NCBI GenBank assembly: GCA_049645265.1
Contig: JBARTN010000303.1
Coordinates: forward strand, 7,907-71,906
Origin: Polyangiales bacterium
Lineage (GTDB): Bacteria > Myxococcota_A > Polyangia > Polyangiales > Houyiibacteriaceae
Length of the DNA stretch: 64,000 nucleotides
Direction: 5' to 3'
Positions 31,928-41,191 of this stretch are shown one piece after another. Each line of letters starts with the position of its first letter. Positions within the stretch are counted from its first letter, which is position 1. Under the pieces are notes generated by a model. That model ran no database searches. It saw nothing but the letters and a program-made list of their open reading frames with translations, and was not told where the DNA came from. The position numbers were made by a program, and so were the translations under genes.

Positions 31928-32554
31928 ATGGCGAGTCAGTCCATGACTGATAAATTTGGCGTTCGTCTTTCCGGGGGCACGACGGTCTTTCGTCAGGGCG
32001 ACCCTGGGGGGTCGATGTACGTGATTCGAGCCGGAAAGGTTCGCGTCCTCAAAGAGGCGCATGGCAGACAGCGGGTCGTGATGACACTCGGCCCCGGGGA
32101 CTTCTTCGGAGAAATGGCCGTGGTCATGGGTCGCCCTCGGACGGCAACTGTGGAGGTGCTCGAAGAGGCGGAGCTCTTGAAAGTTCCTGCGGCCAAACTC
32201 GAAGAAATGGTCGCCCAAAGCGGAGAGGTTGCGATTCGCTTGATTCGGCATCTCGCGGAACGCATCGAGAACGCGAACCGGTTCATCGATCTTCTTCTCG
32301 AAGACGATATGACCGCGCGTGTGATCCTCGAGCTTCAGCGAATCCTCGAGCAGGCCAATGGCTCTGCCGCGCCCGACGTCACCGACGCAGATCTGGCGCT
32401 GGCGCTTGGCGTCGAAACAAGCGAAGCGCGCACAGCTCTACGGCGGCTCACCCGCGTCGGCGTAGTGGAGGTCTCGGGAGGCTTCGTCCTGATCAAGGAC
32501 GTACAGCGGCTCAACGAGTTCCTCGATTTCATCCGAAATTCTGGGGCTTCTTGA
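31928..32554 (+). CDS. Crp/Fnr-family regulator with cyclic-nucleotide-binding domain
   Basis: From MASQSMTDKF (31928) the cNMP-binding signature is FRQGDPGGSMYVIRAGKVRV...GPGDFFGEMAV...RTATVEVL. The C-terminus has a wHTH-like segment. The upstream ORF extension (31736-31927) overlaps cls. Confidence 0.8.
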   Translation: MASQSMTDKFGVRLSGGTTVFRQGDPGGSMYVIRAGKVRVLKEAHGRQRVVMTLGPGDFFGEMAVVMGRPRTATVEVLEEAELLKVPAAKLEEMVAQSGEVAIRLIRHLAERIENANRFIDLLLEDDMTARVILELQRILEQANGSAAPDVTDADLALALGVETSEARTALRRLTRVGVVEVSGGFVLIKDVQRLNEFLDFIRNSGAS

Positions 32555-33321
32555 TGCAGCTCCGCGTGCTCGGTTGTCATGGCGGCGAAACACCCAAGCA
32601 TCGTACTTCGAGCTTCTTGGTGGGCGACACCGTCGCGATCGATGCGGGCGCCATCACGAGCTCTCTTTCGCTCGACGAGCAGGAGCGCATTCATTCGGTC
32701 CTGGTGAGTCATCCCCACATGGACCACGTCCGCGACCTCGCGACGCTCGCGGACAACCGATGCCAGCAGGGCGGTTCGACGCTCGAGATCGTTGGGATCC
32801 CCGAGACCATCGAAGCGCTCCGGAAGCATTTCTTCAACGACATCATCTGGCCGGACTTCACGCAGATCGACGCCAAGGACGGGCCGACGGTGCGCTACGT
32901 CGAGGTACAAGCAAACCAAGCTTCCGACGTCGAGGGTTACGAAGTGACACCTGTCCTGGTGAACCACACCGTCGACACCTCCGCGTTCATCATTCGTCAG
33001 AATGGCAAGAGCATCGTCTATGGTGGAGACACCGGACCGACCGAAGATCTCTGGACACAAATCAACGCACTCGATGATCTTCAAGCGCTGATGATGGAAG
33101 TATCGTTTCCGAACGACGAAACCGGCCTCGCATGGGCGTCTCGTCATCTCACCCCCGAGATGCTTTCGTCGGAGCTCGATAAGCTCACGCAAAGCGATGC
33201 GCTTCCGATCCTGCTCTATCACATCAAGCCCACGTTCGAGGCCAGGGTGCTTCGAGAGCTTGCGCAGCTTCGCGGCCGCAACCTTCAGATCTTGCAGCTA
33301 GAAGACGAATTCCTGCTCTGA
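32551..33321 (+). CDS. MBL-fold hydrolase resembling class II 3',5'-cyclic-nucleotide phosphodiesterase
   Basis: HPHMDHVRDL fits the class-II PDE signature HxHxDH[LIVM]. The ATGA overlap with the preceding cNMP-binding regulator indicates translational coupling. Confidence 0.7.
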   Translation: MMQLRVLGCHGGETPKHRTSSFLVGDTVAIDAGAITSSLSLDEQERIHSVLVSHPHMDHVRDLATLADNRCQQGGSTLEIVGIPETIEALRKHFFNDIIWPDFTQIDAKDGPTVRYVEVQANQASDVEGYEVTPVLVNHTVDTSAFIIRQNGKSIVYGGDTGPTEDLWTQINALDDLQALMMEVSFPNDETGLAWASRHLTPEMLSSELDKLTQSDALPILLYHIKPTFEARVLRELAQLRGRNLQILQLEDEFLL

Positions 33322-33454
33322 GTCCGTTCTGGACTTGGCGCGATCGGGCGTAGCGGGTATCTTGAAGGCGTGAGTGGCGTTGCCCGAAAAAGGGTTCTCC
33401 TTTTTGCGATGCGACTCATCGCTGGCGGCGGTTGGCTAGATTGTCCCGCACTGG

Positions 33455-33700
33455 TGCGAACTCCGAAAGGAAACTCGCTGCCGTGAATTGGCCCTCGATA
33501 TCCGTGGGTCTAACCACCAAGGAACGCTCCGCGTGGTCTGGGCATGCTGCTCAGAGACCCAAGAGCGCCGGCATCGCCGGGGGAGGAATGCGCATATGGA
33601 AAGCAATTCTAGAATCGGACTCGCACCGGAGGTGCGGGCGAGTTAGCCCTTAGGCGAGCTCCCCCCCTTGGTGGGAGTCCGGATCAACGAGGGCCGGCGC
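33455..33700 (+). ncRNA. ssrS: Candidate 6S RNA (long irregular hairpin); ends uncertain
   Basis: The closing stem pairs ggccctcg (33490-33497) with cgagggcc (33689-33696). Further pairs are ccaccaagg (33514-33522) with ccttggtgg (33667-33675), and atccg with cggat, with large internal loops. The segment cgatatcc...accaccaagg-aacgctccgcgtgg...gggcatgctg resembles E. coli 6S as I recall it (CGAUAUUU...ACCACAAGAAUGUGGCGCUCCGCGGUUGGUGAGCAUGCUC). A small hairpin, ggcgcc-tttgat-ggcgc, follows. There is no credible CDS here. Confidence 0.45.
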
Positions 33701-33771
33701 CTTTGATGGCGCTGGCCCCATCTTAATTGTGCACCGTGATCGTCTTCCCAGGTGCGCGGCCTACCCGGGCC

Positions 33772-34218
33772 TCAGAGGGTACCCGCCTCGTCGTACTCGA
33801 GGACCCTCTTGGTGAAGAAGCGCACCAGCACATAGAACAGAAGCCCGACGGGTCCGACCATCAGCGTCGTGACTAGGCAGGGGATGACCAGGAGATGAGG
33901 GACCCCGCGCCGCTGCGCGTCGCGAGCCTCCCAGGCGCCAACGAATAAATTGAAGATCAGATAGTGAATCCAACCCGCGACCACGATGTGCGGCACCGAG
34001 AAACCCACCATCACCCCATAGAGCGACCCAAACTCCATGCCTTCGGGCGGCGTTCCGTAACCGAAGAGCATGTAGGCGTAGATTGGCGTCAGAAGCAAAA
34101 GCACGACTGGGCCGTGCACCCATCGCTGCGTCCAGGACCAGCGTGGCGCGAAAATCAGAAGCAACCAGAATGGGACGACCGAGTAGTTTGCGACTTTGAA
34201 CAAGGTTTCGAGCGGCAT
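33772..34218 (-). CDS. DUF4281 (ABA4-like) membrane protein
   Basis: From MPLETLFKVANYSVVPFWLLLIFAPRWSWTQRWV (start 34218) there are four TM helices. The pattern resembles the ABA4/DUF4281 family. Confidence 0.65.
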   Translation of the reverse strand: MPLETLFKVANYSVVPFWLLLIFAPRWSWTQRWVHGPVVLLLLTPIYAYMLFGYGTPPEGMEFGSLYGVMVGFSVPHIVVAGWIHYLIFNLFVGAWEARDAQRRGVPHLLVIPCLVTTLMVGPVGLLFYVLVRFFTKRVLEYDEAGTL

Positions 34219-34325
34219 TGCGGCGTCCTCCGGGGAGGGGCAAGACTTGCGCCAATCGCATCTCTCCGTCAATTGACTAGGAGTCAGTTGACCTTTTGTA
34301 TTCCAGCGCCACACCCACCAGGACG

Positions 34326-36104
34326 ATGAGACGAATGCCGAAACCCAGCTTCGCCTTGCTTGCCTTGACCACCATCTGTTCGTTCGCCCTCGCCGCGTGC
34401 GGCTCCGAATCGAACAGCGGCACCACTCTCAAGGACTGCAACTACGCAAACACCTACGACGCAATCCAAGCGACCATCTTCGAGGCCAAGGGCTGCACGG
34501 CGAGCACCTGTCACGGCGACGCGATGCTCGGTGGGCTCGACCTCCGTGCGGGAGCGTCCTTTGATGCCTTGGTCCGCCAGCCGAGCACGGTCGACGCATC
34601 GATCGAACGGGTCTTCCCCGGCGATCAGGGGCTCAGCCTGCTCTACCTCAAGCTCGAGGCTGGCACCGGAGGCACCGACCTCGGCGATCTCGGCCAGGCG
34701 ATGCCCGTCGATGAGGAGCCGCTCAGCGCCGACCAGCTCGCAGCGATGCGACTTTGGATGAGGGCGGGCGCCCCTTCGGATTCCATCGTCGGAGGAACGC
34801 TCGAGCTCCTCGGCTGCGCTGGCAGCTTCGAGCCGGACCCCAACAAGATCAATCCGCTCCCTGCTCTCCCGCCGGATGAAGGCGTGCAGTTCTACGCAGG
34901 GGGTTGGGGCCTCGAAGGCGAGTCCGAAGACGAGGTTTGCTTTGCGTCCTATTACGACTTCACCGACGACGTGCCGGCCGAATATCAAGTCGACTGCGAC
35001 CAGTTCGGCGAGGGCCGGAAGTGCTTTGCATTCGGCCGCAACGAGCTCGCCCAGGACGGACAGTCCCACCACAGCATCATCAGCGTGTACACGCCCGAGT
35101 CCGATCCAAACGGTGGCGACTGGGGCCCCTGGACCTGCCTCGACGGAGACAAGGCCGGTGAAACCTGCGACCCGACGGTAGCCGGTGCCTGCGGCGCGCG
35201 AAGCCAGTGCACGACTCCGGCGGTCACCTCGGTCGCCTGCGTACAATACCGGCACGCTCCGCAGGACTTCGGTTTGGGGGGCGGCCTCGGCGGTCCGGGC
35301 GGAGACAAGTTGATTCCGCTTGGAGGCGCCCAGGAGTCGACCTCGATCGACGTGCCTCCGCCCGGGGTCTACTCGATCTTGCCGCTCAAGGGCTTCGTCT
35401 CCTGGAACAGTCACGGGTTCAATCTCACGAAGAAGGCCTCTTCGATCGAGCAGTGGGTGAACCTGACCTTCGTACCGGAGTCCGATCGGGTGTTCATTCG
35501 TGAGCAGATCTTCGAAGCCGACAACATCTTTTCGATGAGCACTGTCAAGCCGTTTGAGAAGCGAGAGGTCTGCATGACCTGGACGCTGCCTCAGTACGCG
35601 AAGCTCCTGTCGTTGAGCTCGCACATGCATGCTCGTGGCGAGCTGTTCCGGATTTGGTTGCCACCCAACGAACCGTGTAACGACGGGACGATCGGTTGCC
35701 TCCCTCCAGAAGCCCCGCCGGACTACGAGAGCAGGCTCTACGATGACCCCCTCTACACGTACTACGACCCGCCGATCGACTACTCCTCTTCAGCCGAGGT
35801 AGACCGCACGCTCAGGGCATGCGCGGTCTACGACAACGGCGCCGACAATCCACTCGAGGTCAAGCGGGAGTCGACCAAGCCGAATACACCGACCTGCTCT
35901 TTCTTTCTCGCGAACTGCGGTTGTACGGCCCGAGAGCGCGTCTGCCTCGGAGGCGACAACCAGGGGGCTGCCTGCAACGGTGACGACTCGGTTTGCGGTG
36001 AGGGCGGCGTCTGCGACGCCTGCCCGCTTCACGGCGGTGTGACCACCGACGACGAGATGTTCATCCCACTCGGCTCCTATTTTGTAGCGGAGCCATCACC
36101 CTAA
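34326..36104 (+). CDS. Lipoprotein: PSCyt1-like CX4CH module fused to a PHM/DBH-type copper monooxygenase-like core (paralog 1)
   Basis: Lipobox FALAA/C. The N-terminal block IFEAKGCTASTCHGDAMLGGLDLR...FPGD..LSLLYLKL...MPVDEEPLSADQLAAMRLWMRAGAP is PSCyt1-like. The core carries HH (QSHHSII), H (WNSHGFN), HxH (SSHMHARG) and M (GGVTTDDEMFIPLGSYF) in the PHM order. Confidence 0.8.
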   Translation: MRRMPKPSFALLALTTICSFALAACGSESNSGTTLKDCNYANTYDAIQATIFEAKGCTASTCHGDAMLGGLDLRAGASFDALVRQPSTVDASIERVFPGDQGLSLLYLKLEAGTGGTDLGDLGQAMPVDEEPLSADQLAAMRLWMRAGAPSDSIVGGTLELLGCAGSFEPDPNKINPLPALPPDEGVQFYAGGWGLEGESEDEVCFASYYDFTDDVPAEYQVDCDQFGEGRKCFAFGRNELAQDGQSHHSIISVYTPESDPNGGDWGPWTCLDGDKAGETCDPTVAGACGARSQCTTPAVTSVACVQYRHAPQDFGLGGGLGGPGGDKLIPLGGAQESTSIDVPPPGVYSILPLKGFVSWNSHGFNLTKKASSIEQWVNLTFVPESDRVFIREQIFEADNIFSMSTVKPFEKREVCMTWTLPQYAKLLSLSSHMHARGELFRIWLPPNEPCNDGTIGCLPPEAPPDYESRLYDDPLYTYYDPPIDYSSSAEVDRTLRACAVYDNGADNPLEVKRESTKPNTPTCSFFLANCGCTARERVCLGGDNQGAACNGDDSVCGEGGVCDACPLHGGVTTDDEMFIPLGSYFVAEPSP

Positions 36105-36230
36105 AGGCCCAATAATTCCGCTCAGGAATCCTATTTATAGTGAGCACGACTCAGATTTTTGCTTGCACCGATAGGCTCATCAGGAACAATCGGGCCCTAA
36201 CTTAGCCTGAAACCCCGTCTGGAGTGACTA

Positions 36231-38156
36231 ATGAAACCCGTTCAATACGCGTTCGCAGTGATCGTGGTTGCAACCCTATCCGCATGTGGAACCGATAGCT
36301 CGAGCGCGACGTTGGCGAAGTGCAATACCGACAGCACGTTCGCGCAGGTGCAGCAGCAGATCTTCGACGCGCAGGGCTGCACCGCCTCGGCATGCCACGG
36401 TGAAGCCGCCAACGCAGGTCTCGACCTTCGACCCGAGAACGCGTACGCGAACCTGATCAACGTCGAAGCAACCTCGGGAGACTACATGCGTGTGTTTCCT
36501 GGCGAGCAGGATCTCAGCATCCTCTATCAGAAGGTTGCTGCGAAGACCGAGGGCTTCCAACTGAGCGCACTACCGAACCCGATCTCCGGTGGCGCGATGC
36601 CGACCAGTAACGGCGTGTTGAGCGAGGACGACTTGGCTCTTTTGCGCGCTTGGATTCGCGGTGGAGCCCCCGAGACCGGCATCGTGGCGGGCTCGGAGCA
36701 ATATGCGTCTTGCGAGCTACAAGGCGACCTCGCGCCAAACAAGATCCAACCGCTTCCGGCCCCGGCAAATGATGAAGGCGTGCAGTTCTACTCCGGCGGC
36801 TGGACCGTTCCGGCCGAGGGTGAAGGAGAGGTTTGCTTCGTTAGTTACTACGACTATTCCGATCAGATTCCCGCGGAGCTCACCGTCCCCTGCGGCGAGG
36901 CTCAGGGCGGCCCAGGCCAGGATTGCTTCGTCTACGACCAAATGCTCCTCGCCCAGGACCCGCAATCTCACCACAGCATCATCGAGTTCTACGTCCCGCC
37001 GCGCGTCTGTGTCGGCGGGGACAACGACGGCGACTCCTGCGATCAAGACGACTCGGTTTGTGGCGACGGCGCGGTCTGCGCGCTCGATCCGGACCACCTC
37101 GACCCGATGAATGAGGTTTGGAAGAATTGGCAGTGCCTGGGTGGAGACCGCTCAGGCACGTCGTGCACGCCCGGAACCGACGAGTGTGGGCCCCGCGGCC
37201 AATGTGCGACGGAGCCGCTGACCACGATCGCATGCATCAACTATCGAAATGCGCCGCAAGACTTGGGTACGATTGCAGGCTTCTTTGGCCGGGCGTCGGT
37301 TCGGCAGAACCTGGCGACGGCTCAGGAGTCGAGCTTCCGGGAGACCTTTCCGCCCAACGTTTTTGCAATGGTTCCGGTCAAGGGCTTCGTCGTCTGGGAC
37401 AGCCACGCGTTCAACCTCACCAAGGCCGACACGACGGTCGAGCAGTGGATGAACCTGACCTTCGCGCCGCCGGATCAACTGCTGTATCCCCGCACTCAGA
37501 TCTTCGACGCCGACGACATCTTTGGAATGGGACGTATCGAGGCGTATTCATCCAAAGAGGCGTGCGCGAGCTTTGAGATCCCACGGTACGGCCGTCTCAT
37601 GACGCTGAGCACCCACACCCATCGGTTCGGCAAGGATTTCCGCGTGTGGTATCCGCCGAACGAAATTTGCGACGCTAGCGGCAATCCGACGGCGCCCAAC
37701 GATGACCCCTGCACGCGCCCCGATCGGCAGGCGGATTACGTGAGCTTCGACTACGCCGACCCGCTCTACCAACGGTTCAACGGTGACGACATCCTTCGCT
37801 TTGACAGCCCGAACAAAGAGGATCGCACCTTCGTCTACTGCTCGGTCTGGGACAACGGCGAAAGCAACCCCTCGGAGGTGCGCAGGGAGTCGCTCAAGCC
37901 GGATGCTGAGACCTGCGAGTTCGTCGACCAGTTCGCGCCGCTCGCCAACCAGGCCGGCCTCGGTCTGTTTACTTGCGGCTGCGTGCCCGAAGATCGCTCG
38001 TGCTTTGGCGGACCCAACGAGGGAATGCCCTGCAACGGCGACGACGCGATTTGCGGCGAAGGTGGTGTCTGTGACGCCTGTCCCGTCGGCGGCGGAGTTA
38101 CAACCGAGGAAGAGATGTTCATCCTTCTCGGCTCGTACTACGTCGAGAAGCCCTAA
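36231..38156 (+). CDS. Lipoprotein: PSCyt1-like CX4CH module fused to a PHM/DBH-type copper monooxygenase-like core (paralog 2)
   Basis: A ggag lies upstream of the ATG, and the lipobox is TLSA/C. The blocks are the same as paralog 1 (GCTASACHG; QSHHSII; WDSHAFN; STHTHRFG; GGVTTEEEMFILLGSYY). It carries an extra Cys-rich insert at residues 260-284. Confidence 0.85.
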   Translation: MKPVQYAFAVIVVATLSACGTDSSSATLAKCNTDSTFAQVQQQIFDAQGCTASACHGEAANAGLDLRPENAYANLINVEATSGDYMRVFPGEQDLSILYQKVAAKTEGFQLSALPNPISGGAMPTSNGVLSEDDLALLRAWIRGGAPETGIVAGSEQYASCELQGDLAPNKIQPLPAPANDEGVQFYSGGWTVPAEGEGEVCFVSYYDYSDQIPAELTVPCGEAQGGPGQDCFVYDQMLLAQDPQSHHSIIEFYVPPRVCVGGDNDGDSCDQDDSVCGDGAVCALDPDHLDPMNEVWKNWQCLGGDRSGTSCTPGTDECGPRGQCATEPLTTIACINYRNAPQDLGTIAGFFGRASVRQNLATAQESSFRETFPPNVFAMVPVKGFVVWDSHAFNLTKADTTVEQWMNLTFAPPDQLLYPRTQIFDADDIFGMGRIEAYSSKEACASFEIPRYGRLMTLSTHTHRFGKDFRVWYPPNEICDASGNPTAPNDDPCTRPDRQADYVSFDYADPLYQRFNGDDILRFDSPNKEDRTFVYCSVWDNGESNPSEVRRESLKPDAETCEFVDQFAPLANQAGLGLFTCGCVPEDRSCFGGPNEGMPCNGDDAICGEGGVCDACPVGGGVTTEEEMFILLGSYYVEKP

Positions 38157-38215
38157 CTGTAATAGTACTGTAAACAAACTGGCCCATCCCTCGGCCGTGC
38201 GCTACATCGCCGTCG

Positions 38216-38743
38216 ATGGTTCGGTACGACGCCTACAACTCCAAATGTCTTCTTTTCTCCTTCAAAGACGGGCTGCTTTCCCGACTTGCGCACGATTTGA
38301 AGCTGCAGGTCGAGCGCTTTTCCATCGAGGTCGACGAAACGACCCATCAAATCAAAGCGACCTTCGATCCGAGCAGCATTCAAGTCGTCTGCGCGATGGT
38401 CGATGGGCGCGACGACCCGTCGACGCTGAGCAAGGGCGACAAGAAGAAGATCTACGACAACGTGACCAAGGATGTGCTGCGCACGCGCAAACACCCAGAG
38501 ATTCGATTCGATTCGACCAAGGTGGTGGAACGGGGCGAAGGGTTTTCCGTCGAAGGCACGCTGGAGATGTACGGCAAGTCGCGGAGCATTCAGACGAGCG
38601 TGCGCGCCCAGGGCGATCGCTGGCTCACCGAGGTCAACATTCATCAGCCGGACTTTGGCATCAAGCCCTACACGGCGGCCTTTGGAGCTCTGAAGGTCAA
38701 ACCCGACGTCCAGGTTCGGCTCAGCGTTCCGCGGGAAAGCTAG
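38216..38743 (+). CDS. YceI-like domain protein (no signal peptide seen)
   Basis: 175-aa ORF. The blocks ...FSFKDGLLSRLAHDLKLQVERFSIEVD..., DVLRTRKHPEIRFDSTKVV...GFSVEGTLEMYGKSRSI... and ...FGALKVKPDVQVRLSV follow the YceI lipid/polyisoprenoid-binding barrel pattern. Confidence 0.6.
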   Translation: MVRYDAYNSKCLLFSFKDGLLSRLAHDLKLQVERFSIEVDETTHQIKATFDPSSIQVVCAMVDGRDDPSTLSKGDKKKIYDNVTKDVLRTRKHPEIRFDSTKVVERGEGFSVEGTLEMYGKSRSIQTSVRAQGDRWLTEVNIHQPDFGIKPYTAAFGALKVKPDVQVRLSVPRES

Positions 38744-38779
38744 TCCGGCGCGCGCTCGGCGCGTATGGTCGGAGGCAAG

Positions 38780-38875
38780 ATGCTTAGCCGATCGTTCGTT
38801 GCCCTGTGTCTTTCATTTGTGCTTTGGAGCTGCTCTTCCACGTCGATAACCACGGGGCGAACGAATACCTGCTGA
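38780..38875 (+). CDS. 31-codon ORF encoding a lipoprotein signal peptide plus a 13-aa tail (small lipoprotein or gene remnant)
   Basis: GGAGG (38771-38775) lies 4 nt upstream of the ATG at 38780. The product is MLSRSFVALCLSFVLWS/CSSTSITTGRTNTC*. It is below the ORF-track length cutoff and was found by manual translation. Confidence 0.3.
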   Translation: MLSRSFVALCLSFVLWSCSSTSITTGRTNTC

Positions 38876-39119
38876 TCGAGGTGAACGTTCTGTAGCCGCT
38901 CGGAATCACAAGCCTTTGATCGTTGGCCCCGCTCCCCCTGGAACGCAACGACCATCCGCTCGCCCAAATGCCACCAATGGGGAACCTTAAGCCCATGCGC
39001 CTGATAACTCTATCAACCATCTTCACTCTCTTAGTCATCGGCTGTGGCGAAAGCAGCAGCCCCGAGTTCGCCGGAACCGCTGGAAGCGGCGGAAGCGGCA
39101 AGTTCACCACGACCCGCAG

Positions 39120-40091
39120 ATGCTCGAGCGCGCAGAGGAGACCTCGATCTACTGTCAGAGCTGGGTGCTTGGCAATGAGGAGCCGGTCTACGTGACGAAA
39201 GTTCGGCAGACCAACGGGGGGGGCTGGCATCACTCGAACTGGTTCTTCGTCCCCGAGGCCGCGTACCCCCCGAACGAGAGGAACGAAGGACCCGACGCCC
39301 AGCTCGGAGGCACCTGGCGTTGCAGGGACCGGGGTTTCCGTGAGTACTTGGCGGCAGCGGCCGGAGGCGTTTTCTTCGCCCAGTCGACCCAGGCTTTGGA
39401 CGAGCTCCAGGCCTTTCCCGAGGGCACCGCCCTCGAGATTCCTCCGCGGAGCGTGATCGTAGGCAGCACCCATCTTCTGAACATCACCGCCGGACCTCTC
39501 GAGACCGCGATGACGATGGAGGTCGAGGCCGTGCCTGCCGAAGACGTGCAGATTCGCCTCACGCCGTTCAGCTTCGCCATTGGAGACCTCGCGATTCCGC
39601 CGGCCGTCGATGGCGTTCCGACCGAGTCACGGACCTCGATGATGTGCGACCTCACCGAGTCGTCTCAACAGCACCTCGGTGAAGACACGGTCGACTACAA
39701 CATCTACTACGTGCTCGGCCACTATCACCAGTGGGGCAAGTCCTTCAACCTGAGCTTCGTCCATGAGGACGGGAGCATGCAGACGGTTTTCGACATCAAG
39801 AACAAGATCGGCGAGCCGATCGGTTCGATCATCGACCCTCCGATGAATAACAATGGCGCGGCTCGATTGCGGTCGGAGTGCGGATTCATCAACAACACCG
39901 ATGAGACCCTGCGACGCGGGCTCCAGTACGGCGAAATGTGCGACTTCCTCGCCTACACCGATGCGAACCTGAAAATCGGCGCCACCGGAATCAACAATCA
40001 GGCGATGGGCGAAGACGAGGACGGCATCGCCCTGTTCGAGACCGACTGCGGCGCGATCACCGGGTTCAGGGCCTATCCCGACGAGCTCTAA
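39120..40091 (+). CDS. PHM/DBH-type copper monooxygenase-like protein (paralog 3, no PSCyt1 module); N-terminus probably disrupted by a frameshift
   Basis: HH (GWHHSNW), H (GSTHLLN), HxH (GHYHQWG) and M (YGEMCDFLAY) appear in the PHM order. A matching lipoprotein signal peptide (MRLITLSTIFTLLVIG/CGESS) is encoded at 38995-39195 in a different frame. Confidence 0.7.
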   Translation: MLERAEETSIYCQSWVLGNEEPVYVTKVRQTNGGGWHHSNWFFVPEAAYPPNERNEGPDAQLGGTWRCRDRGFREYLAAAAGGVFFAQSTQALDELQAFPEGTALEIPPRSVIVGSTHLLNITAGPLETAMTMEVEAVPAEDVQIRLTPFSFAIGDLAIPPAVDGVPTESRTSMMCDLTESSQQHLGEDTVDYNIYYVLGHYHQWGKSFNLSFVHEDGSMQTVFDIKNKIGEPIGSIIDPPMNNNGAARLRSECGFINNTDETLRRGLQYGEMCDFLAYTDANLKIGATGINNQAMGEDEDGIALFETDCGAITGFRAYPDEL

Positions 40092-41191
40092 ACGTTGAAT
40101 CGGAAGTGCATGATGTCGCCATCCTGCACCACGTAGTCTTTGCCTTCGATCCCGAGCTTGCCGGCGGCCTTCACCGCCTGCTCCGAGCCGAGCTCGAATA
40201 GGTCTTCACACTTCATGACCTCCGCGCGGATGAAACCGCGCTCGAAGTCGCTGTGGATCGTACCTGCGGCCTGCGGTGCTTTGGTGCCCCGGTCGATCGT
40301 CCAGGCGTGAACCTCGGGCTCGCCCGCGGTGAAGTAGGTGATCAGGTCTAGCGTGGCGTAGCCGGTTCGAATCACTTTGTGCAGACCTGGCTCATCGAGG
40401 CCGAGCGACTCGATGAACTCCGCGCGCTCGTCTTCGGCGAGCTGCATGATCTCGGACTCGATCTCTGCGCTGATCACGACCACCGGGACGCCTCGCTCCT
40501 TGCCGAGCTTTTGGACCTGAGCGACGAGTGGGTCCTCGTCGAGGTTGGCGAGCTGCTCGTCCTTCACGTTGGCGACAAAAAAGGACGGTTTGTTGGTGAG
40601 CAAGAACATGTCGCGGATCACAAGGGCTTCGTCGTCGTCGTTCGGCTCGATCGCGGTCGCCGGCTTTCCTTCGTCGAGGGATGCCGCGAGGCGCTTGCAG
40701 ACCTCGAGCGCCTTCTTCTCGAACGTGTCCTGTCCTTTCGCGGCACGCTCGGCCTTGTCGAGGCGCTTCTGAACGCTTTCCAAGTCCTTGAGGATCAGCT
40801 CGGTTTCGATGGTCTCGATGTCGGCCAGGGGGTCTACACGGTTGTCGACGTGTAGAATGTTCTCGTCCTCGAAACAACGAACGACATGCGCCACCGCATC
40901 GGCATCCCGGATGTTGCTCAAAAAAGCGTTGCCCTTTCCTTCGCCTTTGGAGGCGCCCTTGACCAGGCCCGCAATGTCGACGAACTCCACGCTCGCCGGC
41001 ACCACCTTCTTTGGGCCGTACAGCGCGACCAGCTCGTCGAAGCGCGGGTCGGGCACCGGGACGATCCCGACGTTCGGGTCGATGGTGCAAAACGCGTAGT
41101 TCGCCGCTTCCGCTTCCTTCTCGGAAAGGGCGTTGAAAAGCGTCGACTTGCCGACGTTGGGCAGGCCGACGATGCCGACTGACAGAGCCAT
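40088..41191 (-). CDS. ychF: Redox-regulated ribosome-binding ATPase YchF
   Basis: MALSVGIVGLPNVGKSTLFNAL..., with a TGS-like C-terminus ending DGDIMHFRFNV. Confidence 0.96.
   Translation of the reverse strand: MALSVGIVGLPNVGKSTLFNALSEKEAEAANYAFCTIDPNVGIVPVPDPRFDELVALYGPKKVVPASVEFVDIAGLVKGASKGEGKGNAFLSNIRDADAVAHVVRCFEDENILHVDNRVDPLADIETIETELILKDLESVQKRLDKAERAAKGQDTFEKKALEVCKRLAASLDEGKPATAIEPNDDDEALVIRDMFLLTNKPSFFVANVKDEQLANLDEDPLVAQVQKLGKERGVPVVVISAEIESEIMQLAEDERAEFIESLGLDEPGLHKVIRTGYATLDLITYFTAGEPEVHAWTIDRGTKAPQAAGTIHSDFERGFIRAEVMKCEDLFELGSEQAVKAAGKLGIEGKDYVVQDGDIMHFRFNV

What the first reader, a model, noticed from the sequence alone, without database searches (positions are those of the whole stretch)
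34326..38156. Tandem paralogous lipoproteins fuse a cytochrome-c-like (PSCyt1-like) module to a PHM/DBH-type two-copper monooxygenase core
**Seen in sequence.** The two adjacent ORFs are clear paralogs. Shared blocks are IF.A.GCTAS.CHG, GLDLR, DEGVQFY.GGW, EVCF.SYYD, LAQD.QSHHSII, KGFV.W.SH.FNLTK, H.H..G..FR.W.PPNE and GGVCDACP..GGVTT..EMF..LGSY. Each starts with a lipobox signal peptide. The first ~110 mature residues follow the Planctomycete cytochrome C (PSCyt1) pattern as I recall it: C..CHG..GGL.L...PG...S.L...MP...LS...L..W...GA. The remaining ~430 residues carry HH / H / HxH / M in contexts that parallel rat PHM recalled from memory.
- DTVHHMLLF versus GQSHHSIIS
- VLQVHYG versus VSWNSHGFN
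- YRVHTHHLGK versus LSSHMHARGE
- GGTSSDEMCNLYIMYY versus GGVTTDDEMFIPLGSYF

**Established knowledge.** In PHM/DBH these residues are the CuH (three His) and CuM (two His plus Met) ligands.

**Inference.** These are envelope-anchored copper monooxygenases whose reducing equivalents come from a fused haem-c-like module rather than from ascorbate. I know of no characterised bacterial enzyme with this architecture.
Basis: partly seen in the sequence, partly recalled or inferred. Interest (0 to 1): 0.85.

Follow-up and report, generated by a model that had tools for sequence, protein, structure and literature searches.

The report
Haem-c-fused PHM-like copper lipoprotein pair
Two neighbouring genes of an uncultured myxobacterium encode envelope lipoproteins that join a small haem-c cytochrome to a copper-enzyme core built like the animal hormone-processing enzymes PHM and DBH. 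They belong to a large bacterial family that no database names and nobody has studied, and they probably hydroxylate an unknown substrate using respiratory electrons instead of vitamin C.

Summary
pA (34326-36104) and pB (36231-38156) are tandem paralogues (44% identity, E 2e-179), and each has a lipobox.

- **Catalytic core.** An AlphaFold2 model of pA (pLDDT 88.6, pTM 0.85) matches human DBH and about 25 rat PHM entries first in the PDB (E 1.5e-8, probability 1.00).
- **Copper ligands.** The only invariant His/Met in the core are HH, H, HxH and M. That is the full CuH plus CuM ligand set, in PHM order and domain placement, in 82 of 83 diverse representatives.
- **Cytochrome module.** The N-terminal module is a PSCyt1-like class-I cytochrome c. 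Its profile hits solved c-type cytochromes and PSCyt1-positive relatives.
- **Correction.** The haem motif is CX4CH, not CXXCH.
- **Database status.** Pfam PF01082, PF03712 and PF07635 do not reach threshold on the window proteins. No named family, solved structure or paper covers this architecture.

The family is large (1,876 representatives at E<=1e-10). The closest relatives are all from Myxococcota MAGs, often with several copies per genome.

Still inferred: copper and haem binding, the direction of electron flow, and monooxygenase chemistry. The substrate is unknown. I could not measure the model's geometry.

Verdict: a real feature, a new variant of a known kind, interest about 0.7.

The parts
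34326..36104 (+). pA gene: 592-aa lipoprotein made of a cytochrome c module and a PHM/DBH-like two-copper core
   Evidence: ORF. 431 homologues, all 'hypothetical'. AF2 model pLDDT 88.6, pTM 0.85. Foldseek ranks DBH/PHM first.
34326..34400 (+). pA signal peptide ending in the lipobox LAAC (Cys25)
   Evidence: Sequence. C25 is at least 90% conserved in A1.
34431..34820 (+). pA cytochrome-c (PSCyt1-like) module, residues about 36-165. Haem motif C57-TAST-C62-H63 lies at 34494-34514; putative axial Met126-Pro127 lies at 34701-34706.
   Evidence: C57, C62, H63, M126 and P127 are near-invariant in 149 representatives; 99 carry CX4CH and 10 carry CXXCH. The module profile hits FoxE, hydrazine synthase alpha and cytochrome c6, with MP aligned on the axial Met. 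12 of 20 modules hit PSCyt1. The module is homologous to the PSCyt1-positive CXXCH repeats of P0362.
34839..36101 (+). pA PHM/DBH-like core, residues 172-592. Putative CuH ligands: H248/H249 (35067-35072) and H363 (35412-35414). Putative CuM ligands: H433/H435 (35622-35630) and M578 (36057-36059).
   Evidence: Foldseek. Invariance. Local hhalign to PHM ligands. Sub-threshold PF03712 hit over HxH in relative P0336.
36231..38156 (+). pB gene: 641-aa paralogue with the same architecture. Lipobox LSAC 36276-36287. Haem motif CTASACH 36378-36398. Met123 36597-36599. HH 36969-36974. H392 37404-37406. H462/H464 37614-37622. M629 38115-38117.
   Evidence: BLASTP against pA gives 44% identity, E 2e-179. 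746 homologues. Motif positions.
37008..37079 (+). pB extra Cys-rich 24-residue motif CVGGDNDGDSCDQDDSVCGDGAVC. It is an internal copy of the C-terminal motif at 38001-38072.
   Evidence: A regular-expression match finds both copies. The insertion shows as the gap in the pA/pB alignment.
38001..38072 (+). pB C-terminal Cys-rich motif, lying just before the Met-bearing strand. The pA equivalent is CLGGDNQGAACNGDDSVCGEGGVC.
   Evidence: Cys columns C540, C550, C557 and C563 are invariant.
34268..34292 (.). Candidate operator: palindromes GTCAATTGAC and GTCAGTTGAC spaced 15 bp apart, directly upstream of pA
   Evidence: It is the only site in the window; 0.3 are expected by chance. It is present upstream of pA in 22 of 46 orthologous loci.
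33772..34314 (-). Divergent ABA4-like (PF14108) membrane protein gene, a conserved neighbour
   Evidence: Pfam E 3.9e-37. Synteny.
38216..38743 (+). YceI-like gene immediately downstream, a conserved neighbour
   Evidence: Pfam PF04264 E 2e-13. Synteny.
38781..38895 (+). Remnant of the conserved 207-aa lipoprotein gene, with an internal deletion of about 508 bp
   Evidence: blastn against L004. The gene is intact in about 35 orthologous loci.
38996..40091 (+). ORF3: a third lipoprotein with a smaller PHM-like pattern and no cytochrome module. It is frameshifted near its N terminus in this window: the signal peptide is in the frame starting at 38996 and the body is 39120-40091.
   Evidence: Frames. 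The window is 43 bp shorter than L004 in the Gly-rich linker. The family has invariant HH93/94, H174, H257xH259, M329 and C310/C330. hhalign against the pA/pB core gives E 9.3e-5 with the His columns aligned.

Best explanation
pA and pB are paralogous, exported, lipid-anchored enzymes of an uncultured Polyangiales-type myxobacterium.

**Architecture.** Each protein has three parts:
- a single-haem class-I cytochrome c module of the PSCyt1 type, with an unusual CX4CH attachment motif and a His/Met-ligated haem;
- a two-beta-sandwich core of the PHM/DBH type, which keeps all six ligands of the non-coupled binuclear copper site (CuH = His-His...His; CuM = His-x-His...Met);
- disulfide-rich inserts.

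**Proposed mechanism (inferred).**
1. A periplasmic one-electron donor reduces the haem.
2. The haem passes two electrons, one at a time, to CuH and on to CuM.
3. CuM binds O2 and hydroxylates a C-H bond of a substrate that is still unknown.

The fused cytochrome therefore does the job that ascorbate does for the animal enzymes.

**Shown here:** gene structure, paralogy, lipobox, fold similarity, ligand conservation, cytochrome homology, and family size and spread.

**Inferred:** metal and haem loading, direction of electron flow, oxygenase chemistry, and topology in the envelope.
For: - **Paralogy:** E 2e-179.
- **Model:** confident full-length model with pTM 0.85, which suggests a fixed arrangement of domains.
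- **Fold:** Foldseek ranks DBH 4zel and about 25 PHM entries first, E 1.5e-8 to 1e-5, probability 1.00.
- **Ligand set:** H248, H249, H363, H433, H435 and M578 are the only invariant His/Met of the core. 82 of 83 complete representatives read HHHHHM. The one exception has lost all six ligands and also lacks the haem module.
- **Ligand alignment:** local hhalign puts HxH on PHM H242/H244, Met on M314 and HH on H107/H108. The PHM sequence was checked against PDB 4e4z.
- **Pfam hint:** sub-threshold PF03712 hits in 4 of 62 distant members. The one I located covers the HxH motif.
- **Haem module conservation:** C-x4-C-H plus M-P is invariant, and 10 relatives carry canonical CXXCH at the same columns.
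- **Haem module homology:** its profile hits solved c-type cytochromes (FoxE E 1e-4, hydrazine synthase alpha 0.005, cytochrome c6 about 0.01), with MP aligned on the axial Met. PSCyt1 is hit in 12 of 20 modules. P0362 reaches 40 bits on a homologous repeat.
- **CX4CH:** it is a described haem-c attachment motif (PMC11492766).
- **Coupling of the two modules:** 69 of 83 complete cores carry the haem module, and most of the rest are N-terminally truncated fragments.
- **Export:** even Cys counts (22 and 26 non-haem Cys) fit an oxidising compartment.
- **PHM precedent:** in PHM, CuM (H242, H244, M314) does the O2 chemistry. CuH supplies the electrons. Ascorbate acts as a one-electron donor, used twice per cycle (PMC9064607).
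- **Tethering precedent:** cytochrome-c tethering to a copper enzyme is known in three-domain nitrite reductases (PMC6278305, PMC13324648).
Against: - PF01082, PF03712 and PF07635 give no hit at E<=1 on pA, pB or any of 81 close relatives.
- Profile searches of the PDB by sequence never reach PHM or DBH.
- hhalign to PHM is not significant (E 0.08-0.3). In the extended alignment H363 did not fall on H172.
- Foldseek TM-scores are modest (about 0.5 on the PHM length) and rmsd is about 10 A.
- The isolated cytochrome-module model found no structural neighbour.
- The haem motif is non-canonical.
- I had no coordinates, so the clustering of the ligands, the Cu-Cu distance and the haem-Cu distance are unverified.
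- PHM's peptide-binding Arg240 is not conserved (Ser at that position), so the substrate is not peptidyl-glycine.
- Neighbourhoods give no substrate clue.
Confidence: 0.6

Rival explanations
1. Same cofactors, opposite electron flow. The copper core oxidises a substrate as an oxidase or dehydrogenase, and the haem c carries the electrons away to the respiratory chain. No oxygen atom is inserted.
For: Fused cytochrome c domains serve as electron exits in many periplasmic dehydrogenases (established knowledge). The best PDB hit of the module is FoxE, an Fe(II)-oxidising cytochrome. No oxygenase-specific partner is found nearby.
Against: The His2Met CuM plus His3 CuH set is conserved intact. In every characterised member it performs O2 activation and hydroxylation with electrons flowing inward (PMC9064607). 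The FoxE hit reflects only the generic cytochrome fold.
Confidence: 0.15
2. The N-terminal module is a haem-free relic of a cytochrome fold. The copper core works with a diffusible reductant, or with a separate partner protein.
For: CX4CH is not the canonical motif. No Pfam cytochrome family reaches threshold on pA or pB. Foldseek finds no neighbour for the isolated module.
Against: Cys, Cys, His and Met-Pro are invariant over thousands of diverged relatives. The CX4CH and CXXCH forms align with a clean two-residue indel. CX4CH is a known haem-c motif. The module is retained with the core in nearly all full-length members and was lost together with the Cu ligands in P0358.
Confidence: 0.1
3. 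These are non-catalytic envelope proteins that use a double-jelly-roll scaffold. They could be copper-binding or homeostasis proteins, sensors, or binding proteins.
For: Double jelly rolls such as PNGase F-like proteins and PRD1 P3 also appear in the Foldseek list. The family is expanded, with varied surface-type extra domains (DUF4215, PEP-CTERM, dockerin, TSP3). No activity is known.
Against: Those hits rank below all DBH/PHM entries and have lower probability. Keeping exactly the six catalytic ligands plus a redox module argues for redox catalysis.
Confidence: 0.08

Closest known systems
Peptidylglycine alpha-hydroxylating monooxygenase (rat PHM core, PDB 1PHM/1SDW/3MLL) and human dopamine beta-hydroxylase (4ZEL); Pfam PF01082 + PF03712
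   Same: Both have a two-beta-sandwich core (Foldseek top hits). The ligands come in the same order and sit in the same domains: HH...H in the first domain and HxH...M in the second. The local motifs are similar: SHHSII against VHHMLL, SSHMHxxG against RVHTHHLG, and TT(D/E)(D/E)EMF against SSDEMC. Both are disulfide-rich and extracytoplasmic.
   Different: No Pfam hit reaches threshold. About 110 extra residues, with Cys-rich inserts, lie in each domain. A fused N-terminal cytochrome c stands where the animal enzymes depend on ascorbate (DBH has a DOMON domain instead). These proteins carry a lipid anchor. PHM's substrate-binding Arg240 is absent. The source is bacterial (Myxococcota).
PSCyt1 'Planctomycete cytochrome C' modules (PF07635) and small class-I c-type cytochromes (cytochrome c6, FoxE, the C-terminal haem domain of hydrazine synthase alpha)
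   Same: The helix-CH...MP...W-helix layout is shared. The proximal His and the Met-Pro align with those of solved cytochromes. The module is homologous to repeats that pass the PSCyt1 threshold.
   Different: pA and pB, and about 90% of relatives, carry CX4CH instead of CXXCH. The window proteins fall below the Pfam threshold. No structural neighbour is found for the isolated module model.
Cytochrome-c-tethered three-domain copper nitrite reductases (e.g. Ralstonia pickettii RpNiR)
   Same: A copper enzyme carries its cognate haem-c electron donor fused in the same chain (PMC6278305, PMC13324648). This is the nearest functional precedent for the proposed haem-to-Cu electron delivery.
   Different: The catalytic fold (cupredoxin trimer), copper sites (T1/T2) and reaction (nitrite reduction) are unrelated. 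The cytochrome there is C-terminal.
ORF3 family in the same operon (375-aa lipoproteins; alignment A4)
   Same: It has the same His/His/HxH/Met pattern and is weakly but detectably homologous to the pA/pB core (hhalign E 9.3e-5, with the His columns aligned). It also has no Pfam family.
   Different: It has no cytochrome module. It is closer to PHM in size. It keeps a Cys pair placed like PHM C293-C315.

Membership tests
Copper type II ascorbate-dependent monooxygenases (PHM/DBH) | Significant match to Pfam PF01082 (N-terminal domain) | tested here: not met
   No hit at E<=1 in pA, pB, 81 close relatives or 62 distant relatives.
Copper type II ascorbate-dependent monooxygenases (PHM/DBH) | Significant match to Pfam PF03712 (C-terminal domain) | tested here: not met
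   None on pA or pB. 4 of 62 distant members hit at E 0.014-1. The best is 15.3 bits against a cut-off of 23, and it lies over the HxH motif.
Copper type II ascorbate-dependent monooxygenases (PHM/DBH) | Two-domain beta-sandwich catalytic fold | tested here: met
   Foldseek of the pLDDT-88.6 model ranks DBH and PHM first, E 1.5e-8, probability 1.00, TM about 0.5 on the PHM length.
Copper type II ascorbate-dependent monooxygenases (PHM/DBH) | CuH ligands His-His...His in domain 1 | tested here: inconclusive
   H248, H249 and H363 are invariant. HH aligns to H107/H108 only in a non-significant extended hhalign. The H363 to H172 equivalence rests on a shared PxG-hairpin-His motif read by eye.
Copper type II ascorbate-dependent monooxygenases (PHM/DBH) | CuM ligands His-x-His...Met in domain 2 | tested here: met
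   H433, H435 and M578 are invariant. They are the best local hhalign matches to H242/H244 and M314. The PF03712 partial hit covers HxH. Each alignment is weak on its own.
Copper type II ascorbate-dependent monooxygenases (PHM/DBH) | Two mononuclear Cu sites about 11 A apart across a solvent cleft | not testable with these tools
   The tools return no model coordinates. The PHM geometry is taken from PMC9064607.
Copper type II ascorbate-dependent monooxygenases (PHM/DBH) | Ascorbate-dependent O2 activation and C-H hydroxylation | not testable with these tools
   Needs biochemistry. The fused cytochrome argues for a different reductant.
PSCyt1 / class-I c-type cytochrome | CXXCH haem-attachment motif | tested here: not met
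   pA has CTASTCH and pB has CTASACH (CX4CH). Among the aligned representatives plus pA and pB, 99 have CX4CH and 10 have CXXCH at the same columns. CX4CH is a described variant.
PSCyt1 / class-I c-type cytochrome | Match to PF07635 at the gathering score | tested here: not met
   None on pA or pB. Homologous modules do hit: P0362 at 40 bits, P0242 at 22.1 bits against a cut-off of 22, and 12 of 20 isolated modules at E<1.
PSCyt1 / class-I c-type cytochrome | Distal Met ligand in a conserved MP motif and homology to solved cytochromes c | tested here: met
   M126-P127 is invariant. The profile hits FoxE at E 1e-4, hydrazine synthase alpha at 0.005 and cytochrome c6 at about 0.01, with MP on the axial Met.
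PSCyt1 / class-I c-type cytochrome | Covalently bound haem | not testable with these tools
   Needs haem staining or mass spectrometry.
Bacterial lipoproteins | Signal peptide ending in the lipobox [LVI][ASTVI][GAS]C | tested here: met
   pA has LAAC25 and pB has LSAC19. The Cys is at least 90% conserved in A1.

The most novel reading that the evidence does not exclude
pA and pB represent a large, previously unrecognised bacterial clade of non-coupled binuclear copper monooxygenases. It has thousands of sequence clusters and lies too far from PHM/DBH for Pfam to detect. These enzymes would be ascorbate-independent because a built-in haem c wires them to the respiratory electron pool. They would perform C-H hydroxylation at the cell envelope on substrates yet to be found. 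They could also shed light on the prokaryotic origin of the animal PHM/DBH enzymes.
Probability: 0.5. Interest if true: 0.85.

Novelty: new variant of a known kind. Interest (0 to 1): 0.7.

Why it matters
PHM, DBH and their relatives are the textbook non-coupled binuclear copper monooxygenases. All characterised members are eukaryotic and ascorbate-driven. How electrons enter at CuH and cross to CuM is still debated.

A bacterial version with a covalently tethered one-electron haem donor would give a self-contained system. Electron entry could be triggered and followed optically. It would extend this chemistry to the bacterial envelope. It would also put a hypothesis on thousands of 'hypothetical' or 'cysteine-rich repeat' proteins.

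The family's expansion in sediment and soil Myxococcota, with up to six or more copies per genome, hints at an ecological role in oxidising extracellular or envelope compounds.

Tried and rejected
**Searches that found nothing**
- Direct Pfam and NCBIfam scans of pA and pB: nothing except a weak cytochrome c551 hit, E about 0.006.
- Sequence and profile searches of the PDB with pB, A1 and A5: no PHM or DBH.
- hhalign of the family profiles against the single PHM sequence: only short or non-significant alignments. Global mode was useless.
- Foldseek of the isolated cytochrome-module model: no hit better than E about 5.
- Seven literature searches for a bacterial PHM/DBH-like enzyme or for this architecture: nothing relevant. 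The searched library is partial.
- Rfam: no RNA family in 33000-41000. The promoter/terminator scan was no better than shuffles.
- Cluster look-up for the taxonomy of distant members: only 'cysteine-rich repeat protein' or 'hypothetical protein'.

**Approaches that did not pay off**
- ORF3 family as a sequence bridge to Pfam: its 120 best relatives also carry no Pfam domain. Its link to the pA/pB core is modest (probability 59%, E 9.3e-5).
- Neighbourhood analysis to guess the substrate. The ABA4-like / YceI / 207-aa / 375-aa block is conserved only within one lineage, together with unrelated housekeeping genes. Solo paralogues have heterogeneous neighbours, including an esterase, GH2, an aldo-keto reductase, a beta-lactamase-like protein and gyrase. 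I therefore rejected an isoprenoid or carotenoid substrate as unsupported.

**Readings rejected or left open**
- A Tat signal, suggested by the RR in MRRMPKP, is rejected. There is no Tat consensus, the closest homologue starts at Met4 (P0121), and c-type cytochromes are Sec substrates.
- Measuring Cu-Cu and haem-Cu distances was not possible, because the tools expose no coordinates.

Full report
**1. What is there**

The + strand carries two adjacent ORFs. pA runs 34326-36104 (592 aa from the ATG). pB runs 36231-38156 (641 aa). BLASTP of one against the other gives 44% identity end to end, E 2e-179.

Both proteins begin with a signal peptide that ends in a lipobox: LAAC25 in pA and LSAC19 in pB. 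The long antisense ORFs (for example 34284-35630 on the minus strand) are what a 62% G+C sequence is expected to throw up. No Rfam family lies in 33000-41000.

**2. No curated family claims them**

- Pfam gives no hit at E<=1 for pA, pB or any of 81 close relatives.
- NCBIfam gives only a weak cytochrome c551 match over the first 70 residues, E about 0.006.
- Sequence and profile searches of the PDB do not reach any copper monooxygenase.
- The 746 and 431 database relatives are all 'hypothetical protein', from Polyangiales or Myxococcales metagenome bins.

**3. The catalytic core**

An AlphaFold2 model of pA was built on an 81-sequence alignment. It is confident: mean pLDDT 88.6, pTM 0.85.

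Foldseek against the PDB ranks human dopamine beta-hydroxylase first (4zel_A, E 1.5e-8, probability 1.00). About 25 rat PHM entries follow (E 6e-8 to 1e-5, probability 1.00, TM about 0.5 on the PHM length). Only below these come generic double jelly rolls such as PRD1 P3 and PNGase F-like proteins, at lower probability.

In an alignment of 68 sequences that share only 30-50% identity, the only invariant His or Met residues of the core are H248, H249, H363, H433, H435 and M578. Of 83 representatives with a complete core, 82 read H-H-H-H-H-M at these columns. The single exception, P0358, has replaced all six and also lacks the haem module.

The pattern matches PHM:
- HH and H lie in the first beta-sandwich; HxH and M lie in the second.
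- This is the order and placement of the PHM CuH ligands (H107, H108, H172) and CuM ligands (H242, H244, M314).
- The roles of these PHM sites are taken from PMC9064607.

I checked the rat PHM sequence I used against PDB 4e4z; it is identical. Profile-to-sequence alignments are individually non-significant (E 0.08-0.3), but each one picks out the ligand motifs:
- H433/H435 on H242/H244.
- M578 on M314, together with the preceding Asp/Glu-Glu.
- H248/H249 on H107/H108 in the extended alignment.

That same extended alignment did not put H363 on H172. I assign this equivalence from a shared motif, P-x-G-(strand)-(turn)-(strand)-His, visible in PHM (LPKGVGFRVGGETGSKYFVLQVH), in pA (PPPGVYSILPLKGFVSWNSH) and in ORF3 (FPKGSALEIPPRSVIVGSTH). 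That is an inference from reading the sequences.

Four of 62 distant family members give sub-threshold hits to Pfam Cu2_monoox_C. The one I located, P0336, aligns profile positions 33-67 to residues 401-434, which contain its HxH.

So the core has the PHM/DBH fold with a complete ligand set, but it lies outside what the Pfam models recognise.

**4. The N-terminal module**

Residues about 36-165 of pA carry invariant C57, C62, H63 and M126-P127. Among the aligned representatives, 99 have CX4CH and 10 have CXXCH at the same columns. The two forms align with a clean two-residue gap between the cysteines. CX4CH is a described, less common haem-c attachment motif (PMC11492766).

A profile of 20 diverse modules hits solved c-type cytochromes:
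- FoxE (5mab), E 1e-4.
- The C-terminal haem domain of hydrazine synthase alpha (5c2v), E 0.005.
- Several cytochromes c6, E 0.01-0.1, with the CH motif on CxxCH and the MP on the axial Met.

Other support for the cytochrome identity:
- 12 of the 20 modules hit Pfam PSCyt1, 8 hit Cytochrome_CBB3 and 6 hit the haem domain of CTI.
- The family HMM matches five tandem CXXCH modules of P0362 (i-E 1e-13 to 1e-15). One of these passes the PSCyt1 threshold at 40 bits.

Foldseek of the isolated module model (pLDDT 88) found nothing. I attribute this to a small haem-less helical model, but it remains a negative result.

'PSCyt1-like cytochrome c' is supported by homology. Covalent haem is not shown.

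**5. Family and distribution**

An exhaustive profile search of 1.84 billion representatives finds 8,256 proteins at E<=0.001, 1,876 at E<=1e-10 and 222 at E<=1e-30. Part of the weak tail matches only the cytochrome module.

- Many members carry N-terminal extensions of 200-300 residues with DUF4215 Cys-rich repeats.
- A few carry PEP-CTERM, dockerin or TSP3 domains, which points to envelope or extracellular location.
- Of 83 complete cores, 69 carry the haem module. Most of the rest are N-terminally truncated fragments. The fusion is therefore the rule.

In species-representative genomes, 435 stretches matched two narrow peptide patterns. The 80 best are all from Myxococcota bins (Polyangiales, Sandaracinaceae), and some bins hold several loci.

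The block PLD(-) / cNMP regulator / class-II phosphodiesterase / ABA4-like(-) / pA / pB / YceI / 207-aa lipoprotein / 375-aa lipoprotein / YchF(-) is conserved in about 35 loci. Some loci have three tandem copies, and some have pA alone.

Additional solo paralogues sit in unrelated neighbourhoods with no recurring partner. The enzyme therefore looks self-sufficient, and context gives no substrate.

**6. Mechanism**

Established for PHM (PMC9064607):
- CuM binds O2 and carries out the hydroxylation.
- CuH relays two electrons to CuM.
- Ascorbate supplies those electrons one at a time.

For pA and pB I propose the following.
1. A periplasmic donor reduces the fused haem c.
2. The haem delivers the two electrons sequentially to CuH.
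3. CuM hydroxylates an unknown substrate.

The high pTM of the full-length model suggests a fixed contact between cytochrome and core. The joint loss of haem module and copper ligands in P0358 suggests that the two work together. Cytochrome-c-tethered copper nitrite reductases are a precedent for the wiring (PMC6278305, PMC13324648). PHM's peptide-carboxylate ligand Arg240 corresponds to Ser in pA (the LSSHMH context), so a peptidyl-glycine substrate is unlikely.

My confidence:
- About 0.8 that these are haem-c plus two-copper proteins of the PHM fold.
- About 0.6 for the full statement, including inward electron flow and monooxygenase chemistry.

Rivals:
- Reversed electron flow, oxidase or dehydrogenase (0.15).
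- A haem-free relic module (0.1).
- A non-catalytic scaffold (0.08).

**7. Comparison and novelty**

The proteins work like PHM/DBH and share its fold and ligands. They fail the sequence-model membership tests. They also differ in architecture (fused cytochrome c, lipid anchor, Cys-rich inserts), in reductant and in taxon.

I found no curated family, solved structure or paper for this architecture. The paper library is incomplete.

I rate it a new variant of a known kind, interest 0.7.

**8. Limits**

- No coordinates were available, so the ligand clusters, the Cu-Cu distance and the haem-Cu distance were not measured.
- All sequence-level links to PHM are weak individually.
- No chemistry was tested.

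Noticed in passing
window 38996-40091 (+): A third gene, ORF3, encodes a smaller lipoprotein with its own PHM-like pattern and no cytochrome module. Invariant residues in the family are HH93/94, H174, H257xH259, M329 and a Cys pair placed like PHM C293-C315. It has no Pfam family. It is weakly homologous to the pA/pB core (hhalign E 9.3e-5)..
   Followed up: partly
window 38996-39120: In this window ORF3 is frameshifted. The signal peptide MRLITLSTIFTLLVIGCG is in one frame and the body starts at 39120 in another. The window is 43 bp shorter than its closest relative L004 in the Gly-rich linker. This could be a real lesion or an assembly collapse in a GGN repeat.
   Followed up: partly
window 38781-38895: Only the start (MLSRSFVALCLSFVLWSCSS) and the end (...NEYLLIEVNVL*) remain of a 207-aa Cys-rich lipoprotein gene. 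That gene is intact between YceI and ORF3 in about 35 orthologous loci. About 508 bp are missing relative to L004. The 207-aa family has no Pfam domain.
   Followed up: partly
window 34268-34292: Two 10-bp palindromes, GTCAATTGAC and GTCAGTTGAC, lie 15 bp apart just upstream of pA in the intergenic region shared with the divergent ABA4-like gene. This is the only such site in the 64 kb (0.3 expected). It is present upstream of pA in 22 of 46 orthologous loci. It is a candidate operator with an unknown regulator. A Crp-like cNMP-binding regulator gene lies at 31937-32554.
   Followed up: partly
window 37008-37079 and 38001-38072: pB carries an internal duplicate of the C-terminal 24-residue Cys motif CxGGxNxGxxCxxDDxxCGxGxVC, inserted after the HH motif. 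It accounts for most of the length difference from pA. From protein lengths, it appears to be confined to the closest pB orthologues (about 640-aa forms against about 610-aa forms).
   Followed up: partly
P0358 (family representative, 1458 aa): This is the only complete-core representative with all six copper ligands replaced (QRLFTF). It also lacks the haem module, so it may be a pseudo-enzyme offshoot.
   Followed up: no
P0362 and P0353 (family representatives): These proteins consist of four or five tandem copies of the same cytochrome module with canonical CXXCH. In P0362 they are joined to CHRD domains. They are multihaem relatives of the pA/pB N-terminal module.
   Followed up: partly
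window 31937-33321 (+): A Crp-like cNMP-binding regulator gene is directly followed by a class-II cAMP phosphodiesterase / metallo-beta-lactamase-fold gene. The pair is conserved upstream of the pA/pB block in all syntenic loci.
   Followed up: no
L018 and L048: Some relatives carry three tandem copies (pA, pB, pB') instead of two. Others (L040, L042) have only pA before YceI, so copy number at this locus varies.
   Followed up: no
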